DNA of 32,000 nucleotides. Source: Pseudodesulfovibrio mercurii. Its GTDB lineage: Bacteria; Desulfobacterota; Desulfovibrionia; Desulfovibrionales; Desulfovibrionaceae. Under the pieces are notes generated by a model. That model did not search any database. It was not told where the DNA came from and saw only the letters and a program-made list of their open reading frames with translations. The stretch is taken from contig NC_016803.1 of NCBI RefSeq assembly GCF_000189295.2, forward strand, positions 2,910,001 through 2,942,000. Reading direction: 5' to 3'. Every line of letters begins with the position of its first letter. Within the stretch, counting starts at the first letter, position 1. Made by a program: the position numbers and the translations under genes. Below are positions 1,922 through 14,362 of this stretch, in pieces.

Positions 1922-1946
1922 CCAGCCTCCTTACGGAAAGATATCG

Positions 1947-1975
1947 AAAGGCCGTCCTCATGGGCGGCCTTTTTC
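1947..1975 (+). terminator. Intrinsic terminator after the aminotransferase gene, possibly shared with the convergent activator gene
   Basis: Stem GGCCGTCC (1950-1957) pairs with GGGCGGCC (1962-1969) including one G-U pair; loop TCAT; followed by TTTTT (1970-1974). Confidence 0.6.
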
Positions 1976-2006
1976 GTGTGGGGGGAGGCGGGGCTGCGCC
2001 CCGGGC

Positions 2007-3437
2007 CTATACGTCCAGGCCCTCTTTCTTGTATTCGTTGAGCTTGTTGCGCAGGGTGCGCACGGAGATGCCGAGCAGTTCGGCCGCGCGGGTGCGGTTG
2101 CCGGTGGTCTCTTCGAGGCTCTTGAGGATGAGCCGCTTCTCCATCTCGTGCAGGGGCATGACCGACACGGCCTCGTCCGGGGTGGACGGGGGCGCGGCCT
2201 CGCAGGCCGCCTGCTGGTCCGCGTCGATGGCCGACAGGTCGTCCGGGGTCCACTGCTCGTCACCCATGAGGAAGTGGCGCGGCCGGATGGGTCCCGCGCC
2301 CGCCAGAAGCACGGCCCGCTCCATGAGGTTCTGCAGCTCGCGCACGTTGCCCGGCCAGTCGTAGTTCATCAGCCATTTCCTGGCCTCGTCGGTGAAGGCG
2401 AGGCCGGCCAGGCCGTAGGCCGCGGTGAACTTGTTGGTGAAGTATTCGGCCAGCAGGAGCACGTCCTCGCCCCGGTCCTTGAGGGCGGGCAGGGCCAGGG
2501 GGATGACGTTCAGCCGGTAGTAGAGGTCCTGGCGGAACTTGCCTTCCCGGACCGTGTCCTCGATGCGTCGGTTGGTGGTGGCCAGGACGCGTACGTCCAC
2601 CTTGACCGTGTCCACGCCGCCCACGCGGTCGAACTCCGATTCCTGGAGCACGCGCAGCAGCTTGGCCTGGAGGCCCAGGTCCATCTCGGTGATCTCGTCC
2701 AGGAGGATGGTCCCGCCGTCGGCCAGCTCGAACTTGCCGAGCTTGCGCTGGATGGCCCCGGTGAACGCGCCCTTTTCGTGGCCGAACAGCTCGCTTTCCA
2801 GCAGGTGCTCGGGCAGGGCCGCGCAGTTGATGGCCACGAACGGCTTGTCCGCGCGGTCGGAGTTGTGGTGCAGGTAGCGGGCGAACATCTCCTTGCCGGT
2901 GCCGGACTCGCCGGAGATGAGCACCGTGGCCTTGGACCCGGCCACCTGCTTGGCCAGGGCGAGCACGCGCAGGACCGCGGTGTGGCGGCCGATGATCTGG
3001 AACCGCCCCTTGGGCGAGCCGTTGCCGGACGGCCGGTGGTCGGCCTTGGGCGGGCAGGGCGCGGGTTCGGGTTCCGGCTCGGGCTCCTCGTCGGGCAGGA
3101 CGAGCCGGATCTTTTCCCAGACCAGGGGCTCTATCCAGTAGTCGCGCGCCCCGAGTTCGAGAAATTCCGTGGCCTGCTCGGCGCTGCCCGAGGCCGTGAA
3201 CACGACCACCGGGGGGAACCCCTCGATCTGGGAGGCCTTGCGCAGAAACGCCTTGGCGTCGAATCCCTGCAACTGCGGGCGGCAGAAGATCAGGCAGGGC
3301 CGGGACTTCTTGATGAAGCCCAGGGCCCCGTTCAGGTTGTCGGCCAGCCCCGCCTGCAGCCCGGCCTTCTGCAAGGTCGGGAAAATGGCGGTCACGGACT
3401 GCGGCTCCGCGATGAAGAGAACTGTTTTTGCCGACAT
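2007..3437 (-). CDS. Sigma-54-dependent transcriptional activator (bEBP): degenerate receiver, AAA+ domain, Fis-type HTH
   Basis: Track ORF is 2007..3602. The likely start is ATG 3437 (MSAKTVLFIAEP...). Walker A GESGTGKE, sigma-54 contact loop GAFTGA, Walker B ILLDEI, C-terminal HTH AAELLGISVRTLRNKLNEY. An EPEPEPEP linker joins the receiver to the AAA+ domain. Confidence 0.9.
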   Translation of the reverse strand: MSAKTVLFIAEPQSVTAIFPTLQKAGLQAGLADNLNGALGFIKKSRPCLIFCRPQLQGFDAKAFLRKASQIEGFPPVVVFTASGSAEQATEFLELGARDYWIEPLVWEKIRLVLPDEEPEPEPEPAPCPPKADHRPSGNGSPKGRFQIIGRHTAVLRVLALAKQVAGSKATVLISGESGTGKEMFARYLHHNSDRADKPFVAINCAALPEHLLESELFGHEKGAFTGAIQRKLGKFELADGGTILLDEITEMDLGLQAKLLRVLQESEFDRVGGVDTVKVDVRVLATTNRRIEDTVREGKFRQDLYYRLNVIPLALPALKDRGEDVLLLAEYFTNKFTAAYGLAGLAFTDEARKWLMNYDWPGNVRELQNLMERAVLLAGAGPIRPRHFLMGDEQWTPDDLSAIDADQQAACEAAPPSTPDEAVSVMPLHEMEKRLILKSLEETTGNRTRAAELLGISVRTLRNKLNEYKKEGLDV

Positions 3438-3592
3438 GGTCACTCCTATTATCGGCAAGTCGGAAAGTTTACAAGAGGTTCGCGCGGTTGGCCGAACCGC
3501 CGGACCTTCCCGGCCGCGTCCCCTCCCGCCTTGCCCTGGTCCGGCCCATCTGCTACTTCTCGGAAGCCCGAGCGCAAGCGAGAAAATAACCG

Positions 3593-5725
3593 ATGAGCAC
3601 ATCCATACCCGTCCTCTGCTACCACAACGTGTCCGACGTGAACGGCCACACGCCCGAGCGGTTCCGCGAACACCTGGACGCCATGCTCGACGCGGGCTGG
3701 CGGACCATCTCCGGCCGCGAGCTGCTGGCCGTGACGCGCGGAGACATGGCCGCGCCGAAGAAATCCCTGGTCCTGACCTTCGACGACGGCCACCTGTCCA
3801 ACTGGACCACCGTGGTCCCGGAGCTGGAGAAGCGCGGCATGACCGGGACCTTCTTCGCGCTCACGGACTTCACCGTGCCCGGCGAGGTGCGCACGGCCGA
3901 CACCGCGCCGGCCATGCTGCCCATGCCCCAGGCCTTCCGGGCCGCCCTCCTGGACGGCGATTTTTCCCAGTTCATCAACGAGGCCGAGTACCGGGCCATG
4001 CTCGACAAGGGCATGGAGGTCTTCGCCCACGGCTGCCACCACCAGGCCGCGTTCATCAACCTCGTGCCGCAGCCGCCCATGGGGGCGGCCGGGGCGCACT
4101 GGGGCGGCTGGTCCATCTATCCCGGCCACCACGACGGCTGGCCCCTGTTCAAGGCCGGGAGCGCCTACGTCTACGACGGGTTCTGGCCCGTGCTCGAAGG
4201 GTTGGGCGGGCCGCGCTTCGTCAAGCGGTCCGAGGCCGAGCGCCGGGCGTTCTGCCGCCGGGACTTCCGCCGGAGCCTGGAACGCATCCGCGCCCTGAAC
4301 GGCTGGGACGAGCAGCTCTTCTGCTGGCCGTGGGGCCAGTTCGACCCGGTGGCCGAGGCCGAGCTGAAGGAGGCCGGGTACGTCGGGGCCTTCACCCTGG
4401 AGCGCTGGGCCAACGCCCGGGGCACGGACCCGTTCCGTCTCAACCGGATCGGCGTGGGCGCCCCCAAGGACGGCCGCTGGATCCAGCACCGGCTGCGCAT
4501 GTACTCGGGCACCCTCTCCTCCCGCTTCTTCTTCAAGAAATACCGCAAGAAGCCGGAGGTGAACGCCGTCCTCTACGCCACGGACTCCGACAAGCTGTCC
4601 GGCGGCAGCCGCCAGATGATCAACAACGTCAAGGCCATGGCCGACATGGGCGTGAAGGTATACGCCCTGGTCGCCCCGGACTCGGCCCTCAACCAGGCCC
4701 TGGACGGCCTGGACGGAACCAATGTCGAAGTGGTCCGTTTCGACGGGTTCCGGGACTACGTGCGGGCCGGGAAGTTTCTCAAGGCCCTGGTCCGGGACCG
4801 GTCCATCGACGTGGTCCACACCTTCCACAACCGGGCCTACAAGATGGGCGTGCTGGCCCGGCTCCTGGGCGCGAAGTGCAAACTGTTCATCAACCGGGGG
4901 GTCATCTCCCGGCCCAACGCCGTGTTCTTCCTGTGGACCGCGCTCAGCGACGGGGTCATCGCCAACTCGGTCCGCTGCGCCGAGATACTGCGCAGGCACT
5001 GGGTGCGCGGGGGGCTCCTGAACGTGGTCTACAACGCCTATGCGGAACCGGACCACGGCGAGCCCAAGCCGCGCAAGAAGCGGGGCACGCGCTTCATCTA
5101 CGTGGGCAACGGCGCGCACATCAAGGGGTTCGACGTCTTTCTGAAGGCCGCCGACCGGCTCTGCCGGGACGGGGCGCGCGACCTGGAGTTCGTGGGCGTG
5201 GGCGTGGGCGACGGCGAACTCGGCCGGTTCGAGGACGTCCTCACCCCCCGGGTCCGCGAACGCTACCGCAACGCGGGCAAGCTCTCCCACGCCGAGGTCC
5301 TGGACGAGCTGCGTTTCGCCGACGTCCTGGTGGTCTCCTCGCGTCTGGAGAGCCTGCCCAACGTCCTGCTCGAAGGGTTCGACTTCGGCCTGCCCGCCGT
5401 GTGCACCAGCGTGGGCGGCATCCCCGAGGTGGTCCGCGACGGCGTGGACGGCTTCCTCTGCGCCTCCGAGGACGCGGACTGCCTGGCCGCGCGGATGCGC
5501 CGACTGGCCGAGGACCCGCTCAAGCGGTACGCCCTGGGGCTGGCGGGCCGCCGGGTGGTGCGCACCCTGTTCACGCCCGAGGCCAAGGGGCGCAACCTCA
5601 TGCGCGTGTACATGGGCGAGCGGCTGTACGAGCCCCTGCCCATCGAGGCCATGACCGTGGCCGAGCCCCCGGCCGAACCTGCCGCCGACATCGAGGAGCA
5701 TACCCATGGGCGCGCCCAAGGCTGA
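3593..5725 (+). CDS. Fusion protein: polysaccharide deacetylase (CE4/NodB-like) N-terminal half plus GT-B glycosyltransferase (GT4-like) C-terminal half
   Basis: 710-aa ORF. N-terminal part has VLCYHNVSD and LVLTFDDGH (the CE4 TFDDG motif). C-terminal part has SSRLESLPNVLLEGFDFGLPAVCTSVGGIPEVVRDGVDGFLC, a GT4-type E-x7-E region. Confidence 0.8.
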   Translation: MSTSIPVLCYHNVSDVNGHTPERFREHLDAMLDAGWRTISGRELLAVTRGDMAAPKKSLVLTFDDGHLSNWTTVVPELEKRGMTGTFFALTDFTVPGEVRTADTAPAMLPMPQAFRAALLDGDFSQFINEAEYRAMLDKGMEVFAHGCHHQAAFINLVPQPPMGAAGAHWGGWSIYPGHHDGWPLFKAGSAYVYDGFWPVLEGLGGPRFVKRSEAERRAFCRRDFRRSLERIRALNGWDEQLFCWPWGQFDPVAEAELKEAGYVGAFTLERWANARGTDPFRLNRIGVGAPKDGRWIQHRLRMYSGTLSSRFFFKKYRKKPEVNAVLYATDSDKLSGGSRQMINNVKAMADMGVKVYALVAPDSALNQALDGLDGTNVEVVRFDGFRDYVRAGKFLKALVRDRSIDVVHTFHNRAYKMGVLARLLGAKCKLFINRGVISRPNAVFFLWTALSDGVIANSVRCAEILRRHWVRGGLLNVVYNAYAEPDHGEPKPRKKRGTRFIYVGNGAHIKGFDVFLKAADRLCRDGARDLEFVGVGVGDGELGRFEDVLTPRVRERYRNAGKLSHAEVLDELRFADVLVVSSRLESLPNVLLEGFDFGLPAVCTSVGGIPEVVRDGVDGFLCASEDADCLAARMRRLAEDPLKRYALGLAGRRVVRTLFTPEAKGRNLMRVYMGERLYEPLPIEAMTVAEPPAEPAADIEEHTHGRAQG

Positions 5726-7268
5726 CGGCCGCGCCGCCTGGCGCGCCCTGCCCGACGATCTCAAGGGGCTGCTGCGCCTCGGGTTCACGGGCAAGGGCCA
5801 CCTGCTCGACGTGGCCGCCCACGGCCTGCGCTCGGGCCGGGCCGCCGCCCCCGTGGTCCGGGACGCCCTGCGCACCCTGGCCGCGAACCATCCCCTGGAC
5901 GGCGGGCTGGCCGCCGAGGTGCTCGACGCCGCCCCGGCCGCCGCGCTCCTCGACCCGGACGACGCGGCCCGGCTGCGCGTCCTGGCCGACCACTGGCGCG
6001 CCCCGGCCGACCCCGCGCCGCTCCGCGACCTGCTGGCCGCCCGCGACTTCGCCCGGACCCGTGCCTTCCTGGACCGGGCCGTGGCCCGTGAGCCCGCCAA
6101 CCTCTTCTGGCGCGAACAGGCGGTCGTCGCGGGCACGGTGGAGAACGAGCCGGACTTCGTCTTCCACATCCTGAACATGGACGCCCCCGACACGGTCCGT
6201 CCGCTCCTTGCCGCCGCCGAAAACCGCGCCCGGACCCTCTTTTCCCCGCCCGCGCCGCCCGCGCCCGAAGCGCTCCTGGACGCGGCCCGCACGGCCCCGT
6301 GGAACGTCGGCCTGGCCCTGCGCGCCCACGACGCCCTGACCGGGGTGTCCTCCCTGCGCGCGCCCCTGCCGGGCCGCACGGCCGTGCTGCTCTACTCCTG
6401 GAACAAGGCGGACGAACTGGACGCCACCCTGGGGACCCTGCTCACCGCCGATCTCGCGGACGCCTCGCTCTTCGTCCTGGACAACGGCTCCACGGACCGC
6501 ACCGCCGAGGTACTGGCCCGCCGGGCCGGGCAGTTCGCCGACCGGCTGGGCGCGGACCGCCTGACCACGGTCTCCCTGCCCGTGAACATCGGCGCGGCCG
6601 CCGCGCGCAACTGGCTGCTCCACCTGGACGCGGTCCGTGCGCACGACTTCGTCTGCTACCTGGACGACGACGTGGACCTGCCCGCCGACTGGCTGCAACG
6701 GCTCGGCGCGGCGGTCTCGCGCTACCCCGAAGCGGGCGTCTGGGGCTGCAAGGTGGTGGACCACGCCAACCCCCTGTGCATCCAGAGCGCGGACAGCCAC
6801 CTGTCCATGGACCCCGAGGCCCATGCCGACCTGACCCGCCTGGACCCCAACCCCTTCGGCCTGACCGGTCTGCACGCCCAGACCCTGGACACCGGCGACT
6901 TCGACTTCCTGCGCCCCTGCGCCTCGGTCACGGGCTGTTGCCACCTCTTCCGCACGGACGTGCTCCTGGACTCCGGCGACTTCGCCATCCACCTTTCCCC
7001 GTCCCAGTACGACGACATGGAGCACGACCTGCGCCTGTGCGAGGCGGGCCGCTTCCCGGTCTGCCAGGGACACCTCGCCGTGCGCCACAAGAAGCGGACC
7101 GGCGCGGCCTCCCTGATCTCCGCCCCGGAACTGGGCAACGCCCTGGGCAACAAGTACAAGATGCAGGTCATGCACGCCCGCGCCGACATCGCCGCCGCCC
7201 TCAAGGCCGAACAGGCCCTGCTCGAAAGCGACCTGCTCGGCAAGCTGGAATACCTCGACTCTCTGTAG
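5706..7268 (+). CDS. GT2-family glycosyltransferase with a roughly 210-aa Ala/Leu/Arg-rich helical N-terminal extension
   Basis: ATG 5706 overlaps the upstream stop (5723-5725) by 20 nt. GT-A signatures: VLLYSWNKADELDATLGTL, FVLDNGSTDRT, NIGAAAARN, and DxD in CYLDDDVDLP. The start is less certain than the stop. Confidence 0.7.
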   Translation: MGAPKADGRAAWRALPDDLKGLLRLGFTGKGHLLDVAAHGLRSGRAAAPVVRDALRTLAANHPLDGGLAAEVLDAAPAAALLDPDDAARLRVLADHWRAPADPAPLRDLLAARDFARTRAFLDRAVAREPANLFWREQAVVAGTVENEPDFVFHILNMDAPDTVRPLLAAAENRARTLFSPPAPPAPEALLDAARTAPWNVGLALRAHDALTGVSSLRAPLPGRTAVLLYSWNKADELDATLGTLLTADLADASLFVLDNGSTDRTAEVLARRAGQFADRLGADRLTTVSLPVNIGAAAARNWLLHLDAVRAHDFVCYLDDDVDLPADWLQRLGAAVSRYPEAGVWGCKVVDHANPLCIQSADSHLSMDPEAHADLTRLDPNPFGLTGLHAQTLDTGDFDFLRPCASVTGCCHLFRTDVLLDSGDFAIHLSPSQYDDMEHDLRLCEAGRFPVCQGHLAVRHKKRTGAASLISAPELGNALGNKYKMQVMHARADIAAALKAEQALLESDLLGKLEYLDSL

Positions 7269-7401
7269 GACGTCCTGGAAAATCAGGTTTTGAAGGCCGC
7301 TCAGCGGCGTTTGCCGGGTGACGTCGCCTCCGGCGGGCAGGGGTTCGCCCCCTTGCCTCCCGCGTATGCGCCTGGGGCGCGGAGGAGGGGGGGGCTTCGC
7401 G

Positions 7402-7446
7402 AAAAAAAACGGCGCGCCATGTCCGTGCATGGCGCGCCGTTTGTTC
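7402..7446. terminator. Bidirectional intrinsic terminator between convergent genes
   Basis: A perfect 13-bp stem, ACGGCGCGCCATG (7409-7421) with CATGGCGCGCCGT (7428-7440). It is flanked by A8 (7402-7409) on one side and TTTGTT on the other. Confidence 0.7.
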
Positions 7447-7466
7447 GCGTGTGGGGGGACCGATCC

Positions 7467-7796
7467 CTATTCGTAGAGCTTGTCGAGCTCCTCGTACACG
7501 TAGCGCATGTACATCATCTTGGGCGAACCGCCCATGGCCACGGCCAGGAGGCCGGCGTCGATGATCTCGTCCTTGGTGGCCCCGCAGGTCACCGCGTTCT
7601 GCACGTGGAGCGATATGCACATGTCGCACTGGGATAGGATGGAACAGGCGATCAGGATCAGGGACTGGTACTTGTCCTCGATGGCGCTGCCCTTCTTGAT
7701 GGCGGCGGTGAACCCCTGGTACGCCTTGAAGACGTTGCGGCGGTTCTTGTTCATCTGGCGAAAGAGTTCGGTCGCTTTTTCAGCGGGTTCCGGCAT
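7467..7796 (-). CDS. Carboxymuconolactone decarboxylase / AhpD-like family protein (109 aa)
   Basis: Track ORF is 7467..7973. The likely start is ATG 7796 (MPEPAEKATELF...), preceded by AAGGAGA with a 5-nt spacer. It carries the AhpD-type redox motif CDMCISLH (CxxC-x3-H). Confidence 0.85.
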   Translation of the reverse strand: MPEPAEKATELFRQMNKNRRNVFKAYQGFTAAIKKGSAIEDKYQSLILIACSILSQCDMCISLHVQNAVTCGATKDEIIDAGLLAVAMGGSPKMMYMRYVYEELDKLYE

Positions 7797-7820
7797 AGCG
7801 GTCTCCTTGGTGAGTAGAGT

Positions 7821-7849
7821 CCGGTCCAGGAGAACGTCTCCTGGACCGG
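7821..7849 (-). promoter_or_regulatory. Perfect 13-bp inverted repeat (hairpin or operator) in the leader of the AhpD-like gene
   Basis: CCGGTCCAGGAGA (7821-7833), ACG, TCTCCTGGACCGG (7837-7849). It sits 12 nt upstream of the true SD on the mRNA strand. Confidence 0.5.
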
Positions 7850-7967
7850 GCCTATGAGAGGGAGAGAGTCCCGATTGGGTTGCCCATTGGGTACATTCAA
7901 AAAATCGACCTGTAAAGTGGAAAAAAGAGGAAAAAATTTCTATTTTGAAGAATTTTGTTACGTTTTT

Positions 7968-8014
7968 TGCCAAATAAACAACCGATTCCGCTTCGTTGCG
8001 CGGAATCGGTTGTT
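7968..8014 (-). terminator. Intrinsic terminator of the ABC exporter gene
   Basis: A perfect 15-bp stem, AACAACCGATTCCGC (7977-7991) with GCGGAATCGGTTGTT (8000-8014). On the minus strand it is followed by TTTATTTGG. Confidence 0.75.
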
Positions 8015-8037: not shown

Positions 8038-10566
8038 CTAGTCCTCCGTGCCGTGGATCAGGGTGTAGAGCGCGCCCTTTCGATCCAGGAGCGCCCGGTA
8101 TTCGCCCTGTTCCACGATGCGGCCCGCCTTGAGGACCACCACCTTGTCGTAATAGGGCAGCATGTCCAGCCGGTGGATGACCGCCAGGACCGTGGACTTG
8201 CCCTTCCAGTTGTTGGTCAGGATGTTCTGCACCCGGGCCTGGGACTTGTTGTCCAGGGCGGCGGTGGCCTCGTCCAGGATGAGCACGGGCGGGGCCTTGA
8301 GGAAGGTCCGGGCCAGGGCCACCTTCTGGCGCTGGCCGCCGGACAGCCGGTCGCCCATGGAGCCCACCTGGAAATTCAACCCCATCTCCACCACCGGCTC
8401 CAGGGCCCCCTGCATGATCAGGGCCTGCATGATCCGGTGGTTGATCTCCTCCTCGGCCCCCTGGGCGTCGGTGCGCACGCGGCCGAACAGGATGTTGTCC
8501 TGGATGTTCAGGGCGTCGATGTATTTGTCTTGGGCGAAGAAGGTGAACGCGCCGGGGTAGCGCTCCGTGGCCAGGTCCATGAAGTCCCGGCGGGAGTGGA
8601 CCACGCGGTTGGCGAACCCCTTGTCCAGGACCACCTGCTTGTGGATGCCCGGCGTGTAGCCCATGGCCAGCTTGAGGATCAGCGCCTTTTCCTGCTCGGA
8701 CAGCGGTTCGCCCGAATCCAGCCGGTTGGCCACCTTCTGGTAGTCGCCGTACTCGGCCTCGGTAATGGGGCTGCCCGCGAAGTCCTCGTGGGAGGGCTCC
8801 GGGCCGAGCTCGTCCGTGACCACCCTGGCCAGGGTCTCGCCGAGGACCGTCAGGTGGGCCATCAGCCCGTGGTCGTCGAGAAACTTCAGAAATTCCGGAT
8901 GGGCGTGCAGGTGCTCCTGGTCGAAGGGCTCGGCGTTGGACGCGCCGAAGGCGATGTTCTCGGCCACGGTCATGTAGCGCGAGTAGGAGTCCGTGTCGAA
9001 GAACTCGATGTGCTCGGCCACGTCCGCGTACATGCCCGCCTCACCCTCCTGGAACTCCTTGCGCGAGGCCAGGATGGCCTCCTTGAGGGCCGCGTTGTCC
9101 GCTTCGGGGTCCAGGCGGGAGCGCAGGGCGAAGGCCAGGACGTCGGTGAACAGCCCCACCTGCTGGGTGATCTTGATCAGGTCGTCCAGGCTGGGCTCGT
9201 CGCCGCCCGGACAGTGCCCGCCCTGCATGGCCAGGGAGCGGCAGGAGTAGAGCAGGTTCTCCTTGACCGTGCCGTCGAAGATGAACGGGTGCTGGGCGAC
9301 CATGCCGAGGTTGTAGGAGATGTCCTGCTTGGTCAGCTCCGAGACCTCGCGCCCGCCGAGCAGGACCGAGCCGCTGGTGTACTTGTAGAGCAGGGCCACG
9401 CACAGGGCCAGGGTGGACTTGCCCGAGCCCGAGAAGCCGACCAGGGCCACGTGTTCGCCGCCCTTGACCTTGAGGGAGACGTTGTCCAGCAGCCGGACGT
9501 TGCCGCCGACCACGAAGGACAGATTGCGGATCTCCACGTCGTTGTCCAGAAGGTAGGGGGCGCGTCCCTCGGTGACCTGCTTGAACTCCGGCGCGTGGTC
9601 GAAGGCGCGCATGATCTGCTGGTAGCGCACCGAACTGTCCTGGTAGACCTGCCAGAACTCCATCAGCTCCTTCCACGGGTCGTAGAGCTTCTCGTAGGCC
9701 GACAGGAAGGCCACGATGGCGCCCACGTCGAAGCGGCCCTGGATGGCGTACCAGCCGCCGATGAGGAAGAGCACGAACGGGCCCAGGCTCATGAAGAAAT
9801 TGTTCACGAACTTGATGGCGAACTTGATCCCGTTCTGCAGTACGGTGGCCTTGTAGAGCTTGTTCAGGACCTTGCTGAAGCGCTGCTTTTCCAGTGGGAT
9901 GGAGGCGTTGGAGTGGACCTCGTGCACCCCGGAGACGGCCTCGCCCACCAGGCCGGACAGGGCCTGGGTGTGCTTGATTCGGCGGCGGTTGGCCCGGCGG
10001 AAGTATTTCTGGACGCGCGGCAGGACGAAGAGCTCCACCGGGTAGATGGAGATGGAGATCAACCCGATGGTCGGGTTGAGGTTGATCATGTATGCGGCCA
10101 TGGCCAGGAAGGTCAGGATGTTCACCGCGGGCACGGCAACGGCCTGGCCGATGAAGGTGGCCACCGGGATGAACTCGGTGATCAGGTAGGAGATGACGTT
10201 GCCGGGCGAGGTGCGGCGGTAGAACTGCACTGGCAGGGACAGGAGGTGTTCGTAGAGCCGCTCGCGGATGGTCTTCAGGGCGCGCTCGCCGATCTGGACC
10301 TGCATCAGGTTGATGGCGAACTTGAGGATCGCGGCCAGGGTCACGGACCCGATGTACAGGGCGCAGTACCGCCACAGGGCCGAGACGTCCTTCATGCCGA
10401 TGGCCTGGTTGATGATCCGTTTCTGCATTTCCAGCGGGACCACGCGCATGGCCACGGTGACCACGATGATGCCCACCACGGCCAGTTGGAGCGGGACGCT
10501 CTTGTACAGGACCCAGGAATACAGGGAGGTTTTGGTGATTCGTTTCTGGTCGTTGGGGTGCGGCAT
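8038..10566 (-). CDS. ABC exporter (fused TMD-NBD half-transporter) with a greatly expanded nucleotide-binding domain
   Basis: Track ORF is 8038..10686. I prefer ATG 10566 (MPHPNDQKRITKTSLYSWVLYKS...), just before TM1; ATG 10632 is an alternative. Walker A GFSGSGKST, Q-loop MVAQHP, signature LSGGQRQK, Walker B VLILDEAT, H-loop AVIHRL. The Q-loop to signature distance is 316 aa, versus about 55-65 aa in typical NBDs. Confidence 0.85.
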   Translation of the reverse strand: MPHPNDQKRITKTSLYSWVLYKSVPLQLAVVGIIVVTVAMRVVPLEMQKRIINQAIGMKDVSALWRYCALYIGSVTLAAILKFAINLMQVQIGERALKTIRERLYEHLLSLPVQFYRRTSPGNVISYLITEFIPVATFIGQAVAVPAVNILTFLAMAAYMINLNPTIGLISISIYPVELFVLPRVQKYFRRANRRRIKHTQALSGLVGEAVSGVHEVHSNASIPLEKQRFSKVLNKLYKATVLQNGIKFAIKFVNNFFMSLGPFVLFLIGGWYAIQGRFDVGAIVAFLSAYEKLYDPWKELMEFWQVYQDSSVRYQQIMRAFDHAPEFKQVTEGRAPYLLDNDVEIRNLSFVVGGNVRLLDNVSLKVKGGEHVALVGFSGSGKSTLALCVALLYKYTSGSVLLGGREVSELTKQDISYNLGMVAQHPFIFDGTVKENLLYSCRSLAMQGGHCPGGDEPSLDDLIKITQQVGLFTDVLAFALRSRLDPEADNAALKEAILASRKEFQEGEAGMYADVAEHIEFFDTDSYSRYMTVAENIAFGASNAEPFDQEHLHAHPEFLKFLDDHGLMAHLTVLGETLARVVTDELGPEPSHEDFAGSPITEAEYGDYQKVANRLDSGEPLSEQEKALILKLAMGYTPGIHKQVVLDKGFANRVVHSRRDFMDLATERYPGAFTFFAQDKYIDALNIQDNILFGRVRTDAQGAEEEINHRIMQALIMQGALEPVVEMGLNFQVGSMGDRLSGGQRQKVALARTFLKAPPVLILDEATAALDNKSQARVQNILTNNWKGKSTVLAVIHRLDMLPYYDKVVVLKAGRIVEQGEYRALLDRKGALYTLIHGTED

Positions 10567-10729
10567 AAGCCATCCATTTTTCGGGTTCGGGACAGTTCGG
10601 GTATAAACGGTCCGGACTGGTTTTCCAAGCATTATAATGGAAATGGGGTGCGGGGCGGTGGACATTTGCCCCCCATCTGTGGTCAAACGTCATGTACGGC
10701 GCCGCGGCGGCAGGGCGTCCGGAAAACGT

Positions 10730-13324
10730 ATGAAGATATCCATCCGAGTCAAATTCTTCGTGGTCCTCCTGGCCTTCAGCCTGGGGCCCATCTTCGTCTC
10801 GCGCGGACTCATGAGCCGGGCCTCCAACAACGTCATCAAGGAGACCGGGGACCAGACCCGGCGCGAGCTGCTCGGCATCGTGTCCGACGAGTTCCGGTAT
10901 ACGGCCTCCTCCCTGCTCGATCTGCTCGAGCGCGGCTCCGAGGTCATGCGCCTGGCCACCCTGGGCGTGGCCCGCGTGGTGGACGGCGTCCTGGCCCTGC
11001 CTTCGCCAGAGGACGGGCCGGAGCCCTTCCTGGCCAACGACTTCGGCGATCCGGATCTGACCCCGCCCGACGCGGCCCGGCGTCAGGGGTACAGCCGCCG
11101 GACCATGGGCAACCGCCAGCAGCTGATCCAGGTCAGCTTCGACCATCCGACATTCCACCTGCCGCACATGCTCGACGAGCGGGCCGTGGAGCCCGAGATG
11201 CACCGCCTGCTCCTGGCCATGCCCGAGATCCGGGCCATCTTCCGAAACCTGCCCCAGGCCCCGTTCTGGATCAACGTGGCCATGGAGTCGGGCGTGATGA
11301 TGACCTATCCCGGCCACGGCAGGCTGCCCGCCATGTACGACGCCAGGACCCAGGACTGGTACGTCAAGGTCCGGGAGGCGAACGCCTTCCAGTGGTTCCA
11401 CAGCGTGGACCCGGCCACCCGGTACGTGGTCAACAAGGTGGTCTACCCCCTGCGCGACGCGTCCGGGCGCTTTCTCGGGGCCGTGTCCATCGACATCCCG
11501 ACCCACTCCATGATGGCGGACGAACAGCTCGAGGCCCGCTGGGGCGGCGAGGTGCGCACCTTCCTGGTGGAGCGCATCCCCGAGGGAAGCCCCACGGAAA
11601 AGGGGCTGCCCATCCTGGTCCAGCGGGAGCCCAACGAGCAGGGCCGTCACCACTGGATGAGCGCCGTGGAGCAGGAGTGGCTGACCTTCGACGAGCCCGT
11701 GGGCTACGAGGTCCTGCTCCACGCCATGGACACTCGCGACTCCGGCGTGGTGGACGTCTCCTACGAGGGCGAGCCGTCCCTGTGCGCCTTCGCCTCCACC
11801 GAGGTTGTCTCGCTGCTGGTCATCGCGCCCAAGACCGTGGCGGCCAAACTGCCCGACGAGGTGGCGGCCTCCCTCCAGAGCCTCTTCGCCGAGGTGCGCG
11901 CCATGTCCTCGGTGGTCTCCGGGGCCATGCTGATCATCACCGGGCTCATCGCCTGGTTCGGTTCGCGGGCCATCACCAAGCCCATCTACGCCATCGTCGA
12001 GGTGGCCAGGAAGCTGACCCGGGGCGACTTCGGCGCGCGCATCGAGCACCACACCGGGGACGAACGCGACGACCTGATCAATTCCATCAACGAAATGGGC
12101 CCGCAGCTCAAGGAGCTCATGCACCTCAACCGGGTCATGGAGGTGGCCCAGGAGGTCCAGCGGCTGCTCCTGCCCGGCGCGGAGCCCGAACTGGCCGGGT
12201 ACGACATCTCGGGCGGCATCCTCTACTGCGACAAGACCGGCGGCGACTACTACGACTTTCTCAAGGTCTGCCCGGCCGACCACGCCCCCTGCCTGGCCGT
12301 GGTCATCGGCGACGTGTCCGGCCACGGCGTGCCGTCGGCCCTGGTCATGGCCACGGCCAGGGGCCAGCTGCACACCCTGTCCGACATCGAGATGGCCCCG
12401 CACGAGCGCGTGGGGACCATCAACCGGGTGCTCAGCCGCGACCTGGACGGCACCGGACGGTTCCTGACCCTGTTCTATCTCCAGCTCACGGCGGACTCGA
12501 ACCAGGTGCAGTGGGTCCGGGCCGGGCACGATCCGGCCATCCGCTACAATCCGGCCACGGACGTCTTCGGCGAGCTGCACGGCGAGGGCATCCCGCTCGG
12601 CGTCATCGAGAACTACGCCTACGCGACCAGCGGGACCACCCTCGAAGGGGGCGAGGTCCTGGTCATGGCCACGGACGGGGTCTGGGAGGCCCGCAACGCG
12701 GACGGCGAGATGTTCGGCAAACAGAGAATGCTTGCCATCATCCGGGAGAGCGCCCATAAAAGTGCCGAGGGCATCCGCCTGGCCATGATGGCCGCGGTGG
12801 AGGCCTTTCAGGGCAACGGCCAGGAGGACGACATCGCCGTCGTCGTGGTCAAGAGGGAAGCGGACGGCAAGTCCATGGCGCGACATTCCATATCCTTCCG
12901 CATGACCAACAAGCAGAACTGCTTCAAGTGCTTCCAACCCAAGGTGGAGGCATTCGGCATCGAACACGGCCTGCACCCCAAGATCATTTTCCACCTGACC
13001 CTGGTCCTGGACGAGTTGATCACCAACATCATCTCCTACGGGTACGCCGACTTCGACGAGCATCCCATCGACGCGACCATCGTCCTGCAGGGCGAGGACC
13101 TGATCATACGGGTGGAGGACGACTCCGAGCCCTTCAACATCCTGGAGGCCCCGGAGCCCGAACTGGACGTGCCCCTGGAGGATCGCACCAAGCCCGTGGG
13201 CGGCCTGGGCATCCACCTGATCAAGAACATGGTGCACGGCATCCATTACAAGCGAGAAAACGGCAAGAACGTCCTGACCCTGCACAAGAACATCGGCAAG
13301 ACCCACTGCCCGGTGCAGGGCTAG
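10730..13324 (+). CDS. Membrane sensor: periplasmic Cache-like domain, HAMP, PP2C (SpoIIE/RsbU-type) phosphatase, RsbW/SpoIIAB-like HATPase kinase domain
   Basis: Track ORF is 10637..13324. The likely start is ATG 10730 (MKISIRVKFFVVLLAFSLGPIF, i.e. TM1). Second TM plus HAMP: MLIITGLIAWFGSRAITKPIYAIVEVARKLTRGDFGARI. PP2C blocks: GGDYYDF, VVIGDVSGHGVPSAL, VRAGHDP, VMATDGVWEA. C-terminal N-box LDELITNIISYG and G2-like GGLGIHLIKNMV. Confidence 0.85.
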   Translation: MKISIRVKFFVVLLAFSLGPIFVSRGLMSRASNNVIKETGDQTRRELLGIVSDEFRYTASSLLDLLERGSEVMRLATLGVARVVDGVLALPSPEDGPEPFLANDFGDPDLTPPDAARRQGYSRRTMGNRQQLIQVSFDHPTFHLPHMLDERAVEPEMHRLLLAMPEIRAIFRNLPQAPFWINVAMESGVMMTYPGHGRLPAMYDARTQDWYVKVREANAFQWFHSVDPATRYVVNKVVYPLRDASGRFLGAVSIDIPTHSMMADEQLEARWGGEVRTFLVERIPEGSPTEKGLPILVQREPNEQGRHHWMSAVEQEWLTFDEPVGYEVLLHAMDTRDSGVVDVSYEGEPSLCAFASTEVVSLLVIAPKTVAAKLPDEVAASLQSLFAEVRAMSSVVSGAMLIITGLIAWFGSRAITKPIYAIVEVARKLTRGDFGARIEHHTGDERDDLINSINEMGPQLKELMHLNRVMEVAQEVQRLLLPGAEPELAGYDISGGILYCDKTGGDYYDFLKVCPADHAPCLAVVIGDVSGHGVPSALVMATARGQLHTLSDIEMAPHERVGTINRVLSRDLDGTGRFLTLFYLQLTADSNQVQWVRAGHDPAIRYNPATDVFGELHGEGIPLGVIENYAYATSGTTLEGGEVLVMATDGVWEARNADGEMFGKQRMLAIIRESAHKSAEGIRLAMMAAVEAFQGNGQEDDIAVVVVKREADGKSMARHSISFRMTNKQNCFKCFQPKVEAFGIEHGLHPKIIFHLTLVLDELITNIISYGYADFDEHPIDATIVLQGEDLIIRVEDDSEPFNILEAPEPELDVPLEDRTKPVGGLGIHLIKNMVHGIHYKRENGKNVLTLHKNIGKTHCPVQG

Positions 13325-13343: not shown

Positions 13344-13676
13344 ATGGCATTGAATCAGATCGAAGAGGGCGGGGTGGTCATCCTCGCCGTGGACGGCAAC
13401 CTCGACGGCGAGGGCACCCAGGCCCTGGAGGACAAGGTCCTGGCCCTGCTGGAAAACGGCACCACCAGGCTGTTGTTCGACTTCACCGGCCTGGACTACA
13501 TCAACAGCTCGGGATTGCGGGTCCTGGTCCTGGCCTACCAGCGGCTGAAGAAGAACTCCGGCACCGTGGCCATCTGCGGGGTCAAGGACTACATCCAGGA
13601 AGTGTTCGAGGTCTCGGGATACGACAAGATCTTTCCGCTTTACCCCACGCGGATCGATGCCTTGGGGGCGCTGTAG
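13344..13676 (+). CDS. STAS-domain anti-sigma-factor antagonist (RsbV/SpoIIAA type), 110 aa
   Basis: SD GGAGGGAG lies upstream. The phosphorylatable serine motif is DYINSSGLRVLV. The gene starts 19 nt after the sensor gene. Confidence 0.9.
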   Translation: MALNQIEEGGVVILAVDGNLDGEGTQALEDKVLALLENGTTRLLFDFTGLDYINSSGLRVLVLAYQRLKKNSGTVAICGVKDYIQEVFEVSGYDKIFPLYPTRIDALGAL

Positions 13677-13886: not shown

Positions 13887-14348
13887 CTAAATCGTATGAA
13901 TGACATGCAACACGACCCCCCAGATCAGGAAGTCCGTCTCCTCGGATAGCAAAATCGCCACATACTCGGGATTCTCCGGGGCCAGCTCCAGGCCGAGCGG
14001 GGACTTCCTCAGCCGCTTGACCGTGAATTCCCCCTCCACCAGGGCGATGACCACGTTGCCGGGCCTCGGGTCCAGGGAGCGGTCCACCACCAGCAGGTCG
14101 CCGTGGTGGATTCCCGCCCCGATCATGGAATCCCCGGACACGCGCACGAAATAGGTCGCCTCGGGCCGCGTCACCAGGTGCTCGTTCAGGTCCAGCCGCT
14201 TCTCCAGATACTCCTCGGCGGGCGACGGAAACCCCGCCGGGACCGACTCCCCGGCCAGGGGCACGGCCAGCCGCGTCCCGAAACAGGGCCGGCATATGGC
14301 CCACGCCCGGCCGTCCGCGCCCACCGCGCCGTGCAGACAAAAAGCCAT
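13887..14348 (-). CDS. UmuD-like S24 self-cleaving peptidase (153 aa), without a LexA-type HTH domain
   Basis: Ala-Gly cleavage site followed by FPSP (VPAGFPSPAEEY), catalytic Ser in RVSGDSM, catalytic Lys in FTVKRL. ATG 14348 is preceded by GAGGTG with a 6-nt spacer. The track's GTG at 14357 lies inside that SD. Confidence 0.85.
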   Translation of the reverse strand: MAFCLHGAVGADGRAWAICRPCFGTRLAVPLAGESVPAGFPSPAEEYLEKRLDLNEHLVTRPEATYFVRVSGDSMIGAGIHHGDLLVVDRSLDPRPGNVVIALVEGEFTVKRLRKSPLGLELAPENPEYVAILLSEETDFLIWGVVLHVIHTI

Positions 14349-14362
14349 CGGGAACACCTCGT

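What the first reader, a model, noticed from the sequence alone, without database searches (positions are those of the whole stretch)
8317..9306. ABC ATPase domain with a triplicated Q-loop/helical-subdomain segment
Seen: Walker A (GFSGSGKST) and the Q-loop (MVAQHPFIF) are followed by 316 aa before the signature LSGGQ. The intervening sequence contains three successive copies of the segment that normally occurs once between the Q-loop and the signature. Copy 1 is VAQHPFIFDGTVKENLLYS...LDDLIKITQQVGLFTDVL. Copy 2 is IEFFDTDSYSRYMTVAENIAFGASN...HPEFLKFLDDHGLMAHL. Copy 3 is FTFFAQDKYIDALNIQDNILFGRVRTD...INHRIMQALIMQGALEPVVEMGLNFQVGSMGDRLSGGQ. Only copies 1 and 3 keep the Gln. Established: the helical subdomain and Q-loop couple ATP hydrolysis to the TMD coupling helices, and the normal Q-loop-to-signature spacing is roughly 55-65 aa. 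Inference: two extra degenerate helical subdomains could be a regulatory or protein-docking module, or could alter TMD coupling.
Basis: seen in the sequence. Interest (0 to 1): 0.65.

Follow-up and report, generated by a model that had tools for sequence, protein, structure and literature searches.

The report
ABC exporter with triplicated helical-subdomain segment
This membrane pump's ATP-binding domain carries two extra, degenerate copies of its own Q-loop/helical segment, forming a 230-residue helical appendage. The appendage defines a large, undescribed transporter family whose genes sit next to signalling proteins, so it is probably a docking site for regulators.

Summary
ORF 8038..10686 (-), probable start at 10566, is an MsbA-like ABC half-transporter with canonical ATPase motifs. 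The Q-loop Gln465 and LSGGQ781 lie 316 aa apart.

Three homologous units fill the gap: U1 449-522, U2 531-618 and U3 688-771. Each runs helix, strand, Q-loop-like loop, xN(I/L)xFG helix, then two helices. Family profiles align at E 1.4e-21 (U2-U3), 6.7e-10 (U1-U3) and 1.2e-8 (U1-U2). Shuffled controls score 11±2 against 46-109. A 70-aa helical elaboration sits between U2 and U3.

AlphaFold2 models the NBD at pLDDT 89 (insert above 90 in most 10-residue blocks). It contains a complete canonical NBD. The excised insert matches no PDB fold, Pfam family or PDB sequence.

The architecture defines a family of at least 860 50%-identity clusters in at least 560 species genomes. I found no literature on it.

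Neighbourhoods point to regulation:
- a cNMP-binding gene follows the ABC gene in 75/80 alpha/betaproteobacterial loci, and is sometimes fused;
- in the canonical-motif clade the order is ABC, cNMP, RsbW-like kinase, STAS, with SpoIIE nearby;
- in the window a Cache-HAMP-SpoIIE-HATPase_c_2 gene and a STAS gene lie divergent to the ABC gene.

Best explanation (inferred): the insert is a docking platform for these regulators, by analogy with STAS protein MlaB on MlaF's helical subdomain. The substrate is possibly a glycoconjugate.

The parts
8038..10566 (-). ABC half-transporter gene (TMD + NBD with insert). The mechanical ORF runs to 10686; the probable start is Met41 at 10566, giving 842 aa.
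   Evidence: Pfam ABC_membrane 69-330 and ABC_tran. MsbA-like NCBIfam hits are all below cut-off. Homologue P0007 starts at the equivalent Met. DNA similarity to L002 ends at 10567.
9697..10482 (-). Transmembrane domain, residues 69-330 (type IV exporter fold)
   Evidence: PF00664 E 5.5e-28. Aligns with MsbA, Sav1866 and ABCB1 TMDs.
9412..9438 (-). Walker A, GFSGSGKST (residues 417-425)
9121..9342 (-). Repeat unit 1 (residues 449-522). It contains the functional Q-loop (Gln465 at 9292-9294) and the ENLLYS helix.
   Evidence: hhalign U1-U3 E 6.7e-10 and U1-U2 1.2e-8. It aligns to canonical ABC models up to about residue 485-510. Gln465 is conserved in the canonical-motif clade.
8833..9096 (-). 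Repeat unit 2 (residues 531-618): degenerate copy with IEFFD strand, ENIAFG helix and 'GL' helix; no Gln
   Evidence: hhalign U2-U3 E 1.4e-21 over 84 columns; controls
8626..8832 (-). Helical elaboration (residues 619-687) with no counterpart in units 1 and 3. It contains the family-invariant His682 and the SPI motif.
   Evidence: Not aligned in any unit-to-unit comparison. Invariant columns. Helical and at high pLDDT.
8374..8625 (-). Repeat unit 3 (residues 688-771): FTFFAQ strand and DNILFG helix, continuing into the canonical helical subdomain
   Evidence: NCBIfam models align their Q-loop region from residue 701-727 onward. The DNILFG-to-LSGGQ spacing of 47 aa is canonical by my own knowledge of ABC domains (positions; not checked against a reference set). 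hhalign.
8548..9237 (-). The insert relative to a canonical NBD (residues 484-713): an all-alpha domain
   Evidence: AF2 of this segment alone gives pLDDT 83.8, helices only. No PDB fold match, best E 0.76. No Pfam or PDB sequence match.
8332..8346 (-). ABC signature LSGGQ (residues 781-785)
8263..8280 (-). Walker B and catalytic Glu, ILDEAT (residues 803-808). The H-loop His838 is at 8173-8175.
7467..7973 (-). CMD (AhpD-like) family gene, 64 nt downstream of the ABC gene on the same strand
   Evidence: PF02627. Conserved downstream of the ABC gene in L002, L082 and L083.
10637..13324 (+). Divergently transcribed sensor: Cache-like, HAMP, SpoIIE (PP2C phosphatase) and HATPase_c_2 (RsbW-like kinase) in one protein. 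The likely start is near 10730.
   Evidence: Pfam. Conserved divergent to the ABC gene in L002, L082 and L083.
13344..13676 (+). STAS anti-sigma-factor antagonist (110 aa) with the DYINSSGL serine motif
   Evidence: PF01740 E 1.2e-20. Sequence. Orthologue in L002 and in L082 and L083.
3593..7268 (+). Polysaccharide deacetylase-GT4 fusion (3593-5725) and GT2 (5706-7268). Possible substrate-synthesis genes; the link is weak.
   Evidence: Pfam. A GT2 orthologue lies upstream of the ABC gene in L091 and L109. GT genes lie divergent to the ABC gene in about 50 of 80 alpha/beta loci. Absent from L002.

Best explanation
The gene encodes a type IV (MsbA-like) ABC export half-transporter, presumably acting as a homodimer, with fully canonical ATP-site motifs.

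Its NBD has been enlarged by two tandem partial duplications. The duplicated stretch runs from the helix before the Q-loop strand through the first helices of the helical subdomain.
- Unit 1 keeps the working Q-loop.
- Unit 3 leads into the working X-loop and signature.
- The tail of unit 1, all of unit 2 and a 70-aa elaboration form a rigid, all-helical appendage of about 230 aa on the helical-subdomain side of the NBD.

Most likely this appendage is a docking platform. Cytoplasmic signalling proteins encoded next door would switch ATPase and transport on or off through it. In this genome those proteins are the STAS antagonist and the SpoIIE-phosphatase/RsbW-like-kinase sensor, that is, a partner-switching module. 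In most other members it is a cNMP-binding protein.

The substrate may be a glycoconjugate, since glycosyltransferase genes recur nearby.

Shown here: the repeat, the fold confidence, the size of the family and the gene associations. Inferred: homodimer assembly, the docking, the regulation and the substrate.
For: Repeat: profile-profile E 1.4e-21, 6.7e-10 and 1.2e-8, with shuffled controls at 11±2.

Canonical NBD intact: Foldseek against the TAP1 NBD gives TM 0.83-0.85 normalised to the target. All motifs are present.

Insert ordered: pLDDT is above 90 in most 10-residue blocks of the insert in the NBD model.

Conservation: 860 50%-identity clusters at E<=0.001 and 572 at 1e-10. At least 560 species genomes. 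The triple motif sits at fixed spacing in all members inspected.

Regulator linkage:
- cNMP-binding gene directly downstream in 75/80 alpha/beta loci;
- C-terminal cNMP or cNMP-GGDEF fusions in P0138, P0152 and P0199;
- in the canonical-motif clade, cNMP 24/28, RsbW-like 19/28 and STAS 20/28 downstream, with SpoIIE upstream where flanks exist;
- in the window clade, SpoIIE-HATPase_c_2 plus STAS is adjacent in the window and in all 3 complete related loci, although the genes are arranged differently (fused and divergent).

Precedent: the STAS protein MlaB binds the helical subdomain of the ABC ATPase MlaF, and a phosphomimetic at the conserved STAS Thr weakens binding (PMC7367683).

Glycosyltransferase genes.
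Against: No interaction was tested or modelled.

The window clade lacks the cNMP-binding partner that is near-universal elsewhere. The platform would therefore have to serve different partners in different clades.

Synteny within the Pseudodesulfovibrio-like group (73-78% identity) could be simple inheritance.

Foldseek did not recognise the excised insert as helical-subdomain-like.

The glycosyltransferase link in the window is weak. The GT genes are absent from the closest relative L002.
Confidence: 0.45

Rival explanations
1. The insert acts in cis with no protein partner. It changes NBD-TMD coupling or NBD dimerisation, for example as an autoinhibitory or clamp domain that restrains rotation of the helical subdomain.
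For: The duplicated element includes the xN(I/L)xFG helix. By established knowledge of type IV exporters (not tested here), that helix lines the coupling-helix groove in canonical exporters. The insert is rigid and packed onto the NBD at high pLDDT. In the excised insert the copy-2 strands are lost, which suggests intimate packing with the rest of the NBD.
Against: It does not explain the near-universal adjacent or fused signalling genes. It also does not exclude partner docking.
Confidence: 0.2
2. The insert is a cytoplasmic substrate- or cargo-recognition domain, analogous to the carbohydrate-binding module of Wzt or the peptidase domain of PCATs. It would recruit a glycoconjugate or peptide made by neighbouring enzymes.
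For: Glycosyltransferase genes recur next to family members: about 50 of 80 alpha/beta loci, the GT2 in the window, L091 and L109, and PqqD-like genes near some canonical-clade loci. His682 and Arg residues in the insert are invariant.
Against: The neighbouring biosynthetic genes differ between clades, while the insert is conserved. The insert has no similarity to any known binding module. The signalling partners are the more constant neighbours.
Confidence: 0.12
3. The repeat is a chance recurrence of a short motif, or an assembly or annotation artefact, and the insert is an unrelated or neutral sequence.
For: Single-sequence self-BLAST is weak (E 0.001-0.2). Foldseek and Pfam do not see ABC-like elements in the excised insert.
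Against: Profile alignments of 68-84 columns sit far above the shuffled controls. The same collinear architecture occurs in hundreds of independent genomes and metagenomes. Positions are strongly conserved and the model is confident.
Confidence: 0.02

Closest known systems
MsbA / ABCB-type (type IV) ABC export half-transporters
   Same: N-terminal six-helix ABC_membrane domain followed by one NBD. Walker A, Q-loop, LSGGQ, Walker B-Glu and H-loop are all canonical. The best sequence and fold matches are MsbA, Sav1866, TAP1 and ABCB1.
   Different: Q-loop-to-signature spacing is 316 aa here, against roughly 55-65 aa by my own knowledge of ABC domains (not checked against a reference set). All NCBIfam equivalog scores are far below cut-off (MsbA 312 versus 602). 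No solved structure carries the insert.
MlaFEDB: STAS protein MlaB bound to the helical subdomain of the ABC ATPase MlaF
   Same: An ABC ATPase whose helical subdomain is the docking site of a STAS-domain regulator. The STAS protein carries the conserved phosphorylatable Ser/Thr (PMC7367683). Here a STAS gene with its kinase and phosphatase lies next to an ABC gene whose helical-subdomain elements are multiplied.
   Different: MlaF has a single, normal helical subdomain and belongs to an importer-like (type VII) system with a separate TMD. For MlaB no kinase or phosphatase is known. Binding in the present system is only inferred.
Partner-switching modules (RsbU/RsbV/RsbW, SpoIIE/SpoIIAA/SpoIIAB)
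   Same: A PP2C SpoIIE phosphatase domain, an HATPase_c_2 kinase domain and a STAS antagonist with the Ser motif are all present.
   Different: In the window clade the phosphatase and kinase are fused in one sensor protein. No sigma-factor gene was seen among the window ORFs that were scanned against Pfam, but this was not searched exhaustively. The proposed output is a transporter.
Soluble ABC proteins with insertions in or near the helical subdomain (ABCF 'arm', eEF3 chromodomain, UvrA insertion domains, Rad50/SMC coiled coils)
   Same: Extra modules inserted between the Walker A/Q-loop region and the signature, and used to dock macromolecules. This rests on my own knowledge, not on a test here.
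   Different: Those inserts are unrelated folds, not internal copies of the Q-loop/helical segment, and the proteins are not transporters. PADLOC shows only generic ABC similarity.
Regulatory domains of ABC importer ATPases (MalK, MetN, ModC C-terminal domains)
   Same: An accessory domain on the NBD that transmits a cytoplasmic signal to the ATPase. These are named as examples of regulated ABC transporters in PMC7367683.
   Different: Those domains are C-terminal beta-rich domains, not an insertion inside the helical subdomain.

Membership tests
ABC transporter ATPase (PF00005) fused to a type IV exporter TMD (PF00664) | Pfam ABC_tran and ABC_membrane both above gathering score, TMD N-terminal to NBD | tested here: met
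   ABC_tran 99.6 bits (cut-off 25) in two stretches. ABC_membrane 98.8 bits (cut-off 28), residues 69-330.
ABC transporter ATPase (PF00005) fused to a type IV exporter TMD (PF00664) | Canonical Walker A, Q-loop Gln, LSGGQ, Walker B Asp-Glu and H-loop His | tested here: met
   GFSGSGKST 417-425, Q465, LSGGQ 781-785, ILDEAT 803-808, H838
ABC transporter ATPase (PF00005) fused to a type IV exporter TMD (PF00664) | Complete canonical NBD fold | tested here: met
   AF2 model against TAP1 NBD crystal structures: TM 0.83-0.85 normalised to the target
MsbA lipid A flippase (TIGR02203 / NF008381 equivalogs) | Score above the NCBIfam equivalog cut-off | tested here: not met
   312 bits versus cut-off 602, and 215 versus 867. 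No other NCBIfam equivalog is reached either.
The insert-bearing ABC exporter family (defined here, unnamed) | Three xN(I/L)xFG units, collinear, at fixed spacing between the Q-loop strand and the signature | tested here: met
   ENLLYS 476, ENIAFG 575, DNILFG 729. Collinear alignment with distant members.
The insert-bearing ABC exporter family (defined here, unnamed) | Adjacent or fused cNMP-binding protein | tested here: not met
   Present in 75/80 alpha/beta and 24/28 canonical-clade loci. Absent from L002, L082 and L083. In the window, Pfam scans of the flanking genes and larger ORFs show no cNMP_binding domain, and the gene downstream of the ABC gene is a CMD-family gene. Small window ORFs were not scanned for this domain.
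Partner-switching module (RsbU/V/W type) as neighbour | PP2C (SpoIIE) phosphatase, HATPase_c_2 kinase and a STAS antagonist with a conserved Ser | tested here: met
   SpoIIE E 7.4e-49 and HATPase_c_2 9.7e-18 in 10637-13324. STAS 1.2e-20 at 13344-13676 with the motif DYINSSGL.
Partner-switching module (RsbU/V/W type) as neighbour | The kinase/anti-sigma or the STAS protein binds a defined output protein (here proposed: the ABC insert) | not testable with these tools
   No complex prediction or coordinates are available. This rests on gene neighbourhood and the MlaB-MlaF precedent.
Anti-phage defence ABC/SMC-like ATPases | Match to a PADLOC system model beyond the generic ABC core | tested here: not met
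   Only the generic ABC region matches mad3 and mad8. The insert, the sensor, STAS and CMD have no hit.

The most novel reading that the evidence does not exclude
The triplicated helical-subdomain appendage is the output receiver of cytoplasmic signalling. A phospho-switchable STAS protein (or its RsbW-like kinase), and in other clades a cNMP-binding protein, dock on the pseudo-helical-subdomain copies and gate a glycoconjugate exporter. This would be, as far as my literature searches show, the first ABC exporter shown to be the direct target of a partner-switching cascade or cyclic-nucleotide sensor. It would also be a new way of building a regulatory domain, by recycling the NBD's own coupling element.
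Probability: 0.3. Interest if true: 0.8.

Novelty: new variant of a known kind. Interest (0 to 1): 0.62.

Why it matters
Post-translational regulation of ABC exporters is poorly understood, and few regulator docking sites on NBDs are known. This is a large, widespread and so far undescribed exporter family. Its NBD carries an ordered domain with no Pfam entry or known fold match, made from copies of its own Q-loop/helical segment. It is genetically wired to cNMP sensors and to partner-switching proteins.

If the docking model is right, it links two major bacterial signalling modes directly to membrane export, possibly of surface glycans. It would also give partner-switching systems a non-sigma output that can be tested with purified components.

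The mostly degenerate ATP sites of the alpha/betaproteobacterial clade also raise the question of how, or whether, those members hydrolyse ATP.

Tried and rejected
1. Single-sequence self-BLAST of the three segments was only marginal. Family profiles were needed.

2. I considered that the 'ILxARxxF' helix ending units 1 and 2 is a degenerate signature helix. hhalign gave P 0.33-0.34 against the signature region, so this is not supported. The two tail helices do match each other (P 1.6e-7).

3. Foldseek of the excised insert against the PDB found no match (best E 0.76, TM below 0.25). It is therefore neither a known domain nor recognisably a helical subdomain when taken alone.

4. Pfam and PDB sequence/profile searches with the insert found nothing.

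5. MsbA, HepA, type I secretion and other NCBIfam equivalogs all fell below cut-off.

6. PADLOC gave only generic ABC similarity, so this is not a defence system.

7. The search for related loci with alignment A2 failed for lack of a conserved stretch. It worked with A4.

8. Single-linkage clustering of neighbouring stop-to-stop ORFs was confounded by high-GC spurious ORFs and hid the glycosyltransferase association. Targeted phmmer recovered it.

9. Four literature searches for the family, the insertion or the ABC/cNMP/partner-switch linkage found nothing relevant.

10. The 454-aa 'stand-alone' homologue P0053 turned out to be a frameshifted gene call of a full-length transporter.
Full report
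**What is at the locus**

The finding lies in the minus-strand ORF 8038..10686 (882 aa). The probable start is Met41 at 10566. Homologue P0007 begins at the equivalent MPHPN. DNA similarity to the nearest genome, Pseudodesulfovibrio sp. MAG6 (locus L002), stops at 10567.

Pfam finds ABC_membrane at residues 69-330. It finds ABC_tran split into two stretches, the first covering 400-510 and profile positions 1-92 of 137. NCBIfam's best models are MsbA, HepA and type I secretion or bacteriocin exporters. All fall far below their cut-offs and all are split in two.

PDB chains such as ABCB1, MsbA, Sav1866 and TM287/288 align up to residue 480-488 and again from about 770. Some NCBIfam models instead restart at 699-727, which places their Q-loop region on 'copy 3'.

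All ATP-site motifs are canonical:
- Walker A, residues 417-425
- Q-loop Gln465
- LSGGQ, residues 781-785
- ILDEAT, residues 803-808
- H-loop His838

Coordinates, motifs and the 316-aa Q-loop-to-signature distance are exact. BLAST of the window's three segments against each other is marginal, at E 0.001 to 0.2. The decisive evidence comes from relatives.

An insert-only search found 9 close relatives. A profile search found more than 535 proteins. An exhaustive HMMER scan of 1.84 billion cluster representatives gave 860 hits at E<=0.001, 572 at 1e-10 and 181 at 1e-30. Full-length members are 830-1200 aa and carry the insert at about 500-750.

Every member inspected has three xN(I/L)xFG motifs at fixed spacing. 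The copy 2 to copy 3 distance is about 154-158 aa.

I cut the family alignment into three segments and compared them with hhalign.
- With alignment A3: S2-S3 E 1.8e-11, S1-S3 1.1e-9, S1-S2 3.7e-6. A separate match joins the helices that end segments 1 and 2.
- With an independent MAFFT alignment of 128 full-length sequences, and unit borders moved to include the preceding helix: U2(531-618)-U3(688-771) E 1.4e-21 over 84 columns, U1(449-522)-U3 6.7e-10 over 68, U1-U2 1.2e-8 over 70.
- Column-shuffled and reversed controls scored 8-19, against 38-109 for the real pairs.

The triplication is therefore real and extends well beyond the short motif. Each unit is about 75-90 aa. It runs: helix ending in (A/S)Rxx(F/L), short strand, Q-loop-like loop, xN(I/L)xFG helix, helix, 'GL' helix.

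Residues 619-687 between U2 and U3 are a helical elaboration with no counterpart. They include the invariant His682.

Gln719 of copy 3 is not conserved even in 70-78% identical relatives. Gln465 is conserved throughout the canonical-motif clade. Unit 1 therefore supplies the working Q-loop, and unit 3 leads into the working X-loop and signature.

**Structure**

AlphaFold2 on residues 380-882 with 125 aligned sequences gave mean pLDDT 89.4 and pTM 0.86. The insert is above 90 in most 10-residue blocks. The same secondary-structure pattern recurs in units 2 and 3: a 3-residue strand, a loop, a short helix, a 3-residue strand, then two helices.

Foldseek against the PDB shows that a complete canonical NBD is contained in the model. 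TM normalised to the TAP1 NBD is 0.83-0.85, and about 0.43 normalised to the query.

The insert alone (484-713) folds as an all-helical domain at pLDDT 83.8. It has no PDB fold match; the best is E 0.76 with TM below 0.25. Its profile matches no PDB sequence and no Pfam family. So it is neither disordered nor a known unrelated domain.

The strands of unit 2 disappear in the excised model. This suggests, as an inference, that they pair with elements outside the excised segment, possibly the unit 3 strands. The tools do not return coordinates. I therefore could not determine where the appendage sits relative to the coupling helices or the dimer interface.

**Family and taxonomy**

These are overwhelmingly Alphaproteobacteria, including Rhodospirillales, Geminicoccaceae, Kiloniellales, Thalassobaculum litoreum DSM 18839 and Pelagibius. 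There are also Betaproteobacteria, including Burkholderiales, Casimicrobiaceae and Rhodoferax. One close hit at 74% identity is Pseudodesulfovibrio sp. MAG6.

The proteobacterial clade has systematically altered ATP-site motifs:
- Walker A GxxxSGK(E/D)
- Walker B Asp replaced by Asn or Ser
- signature LSxxQ
- Q-loop Gln and H-loop His often lost

A second, diverse clade keeps GFSGSGKST, LSGGQ and DEAT. It includes the window protein and is found mostly in metagenomes. Both clades have all three units, so the duplications predate their split.

Databases name these proteins only generically as ABC proteins. Four literature searches found nothing on the family.

**Genomic context**

- *Alpha/betaproteobacterial loci.* A cNMP-binding-domain gene follows the ABC gene directly on the same strand in 75 of 80 loci (Pfam confirmation). 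In some proteins it is fused to the C-terminus, alone (P0138) or with a GGDEF domain (P0152, P0199). Three glycosyltransferase genes lie divergently upstream in about 50 of 80 loci. An adenylate/guanylate cyclase gene is nearby in 23 of 80.
- *Canonical-motif metagenomic loci.* The order is ABC, cNMP-binding protein (24/28), HATPase_c_2 RsbW-like kinase (19/28), then STAS antagonist (20/28). A membrane SpoIIE phosphatase lies upstream where the flank exists. Many loci are truncated, so these counts are lower bounds.
- *The window and its close relatives L002, L082 and L083.* There is no cNMP gene. The ABC gene is divergent from a single Cache-HAMP-SpoIIE-HATPase_c_2 protein (10637/10730-13324), which is followed by a STAS gene (13344-13676, motif DYINSSGL). 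A CMD-family gene follows the ABC gene.

The association of this transporter with partner-switching components thus survives gene fusion and rearrangement between clades that share only about 35% identity. This argues for functional coupling rather than inherited synteny.

**How it most likely works**

*Shown:* a canonical ATPase core; an ordered appendage made of two extra Q-loop/helical-segment units plus an elaboration; strong conservation; signalling-gene neighbours.

*Established elsewhere:* the helical subdomain rotates against the catalytic core on nucleotide binding and on contact with the TMD coupling helices. In MlaFB the STAS protein MlaB binds the helical subdomain of the NBD, about 30 Å from the ATP site. 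A phosphomimetic at the conserved STAS Thr weakens that binding (PMC7367683).

*Inferred:* the appendage is a docking platform. Through it, the STAS protein (phosphorylated by the RsbW-like domain and dephosphorylated by SpoIIE), the kinase domain itself, or in other clades the cNMP-binding protein, would control helical-subdomain movement and hence ATPase and transport. I put this at about 0.45.

The rivals are a purely cis coupling or autoinhibitory role (0.2), a cargo-recognition role (0.12) and chance or artefact (0.02).

A glycoconjugate substrate is suggested by recurrent glycosyltransferase neighbours. In the window these are the deacetylase-GT4 and GT2 genes at 3593-7268. A GT2 orthologue lies next to the ABC gene in L091 and L109. 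The link is weak for the window, because the GT genes are absent from L002.

**Comparison and novelty**

The protein is a member of the ABC type IV exporter superfamily; its domains, motifs and fold were tested and met. It is not MsbA or any other named equivalog, since all cut-offs were missed.

It resembles MlaFB only in the proposed logic of a STAS protein acting on a helical subdomain. It resembles soluble ABC proteins (ABCF arm, eEF3, UvrA) only in having an insertion in this part of the NBD. I know of no described ABC protein whose insertion is made of copies of its own Q-loop/helical segment, and none surfaced in the PDB or in the literature searches.

I rate it a new variant of a known kind, and the window protein one member of a large undescribed family.

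**Verdict**

Interest is 0.62.

Noticed in passing
window 13344-13676 (+) and 10637-13324 (+): A complete partner-switching set lies next to the ABC gene. One protein combines a Cache-like domain, HAMP, a SpoIIE phosphatase and an RsbW-like HATPase_c_2 kinase. It is followed 20 nt later by a STAS antagonist. No sigma-factor gene was seen among the window ORFs scanned against Pfam.
   Followed up: yes
loci L003-L081 (e.g. L017, Thalassobaculum litoreum): The alpha/betaproteobacterial clade has systematically degenerate ATP-site motifs in what look like homodimeric half-transporters: Walker A GK(E/D), Walker B Asp replaced by Asn or Ser, signature LSxxQ, and Q-loop Gln often lost. How, or whether, these hydrolyse ATP is unclear.
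   Followed up: partly
loci L003-L081, upstream of the ABC gene; L001 474-4672: Three glycosyltransferase genes (two GT4, one with a His_Phos_1 domain, and one Glyco_tran_28_C-like) lie divergent to the ABC-cNMP pair in about 50 of 80 loci. An adenylate/guanylate cyclase gene is nearby in 23 of 80.
   Followed up: partly
window 1922-7466: A block of about 5.5 kb lies between the aminotransferase and CMD genes. It holds a sigma-54 activator (2007-3602, -), a polysaccharide deacetylase-GT4 fusion and a GT2. Those two flanking genes are adjacent in Pseudodesulfovibrio sp. MAG6 (L002). Part of the block (5001-7000) is 73-74% GC, against about 65% for the ABC gene. It may be an acquired island.
   Followed up: partly
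L091 1641-3371 and L109 3-1724: Orthologues of the window's unusual 520-aa GT2 protein (E 1e-47 to 1e-49) lie upstream of insert-bearing ABC genes in two high-GC metagenomic loci from a different subclade.
   Followed up: no
L085, L096, L097, L101, L104 downstream of STAS: A convergent trio of genes recurs after the STAS gene in several canonical-clade loci: a PqqD-like protein plus proteins of about 300 aa and about 210 aa with no Pfam match. QueA lies upstream in L096 and L097. This may be lineage synteny or a linked peptide pathway.
   Followed up: partly
P0152, P0199, L072: Some family members are fused at the C-terminus to a cNMP-binding domain followed by a GGDEF domain, which links the transporter to c-di-GMP signalling as well.
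   Followed up: partly
L001 6722-9365: The 454-aa 'stand-alone' homologue P0053 is an artefact. A frameshift in the metagenome contig splits a full-length transporter of about 880 aa.
   Followed up: yes
window 13887-14357 (-): A UmuD/LexA-like S24 peptidase gene lies just beyond the STAS gene.
   Followed up: no
L085 6965-7492, L104 6965-7489: The cNMP-binding-domain proteins of the canonical-motif clade lack the usual R(T/S)A phosphate-binding-cassette residues (for example GEFLGG...MRRLFS). The alphaproteobacterial ones keep them (GEIAIL...PRTAT). The former may not bind cyclic nucleotides.
   Followed up: no
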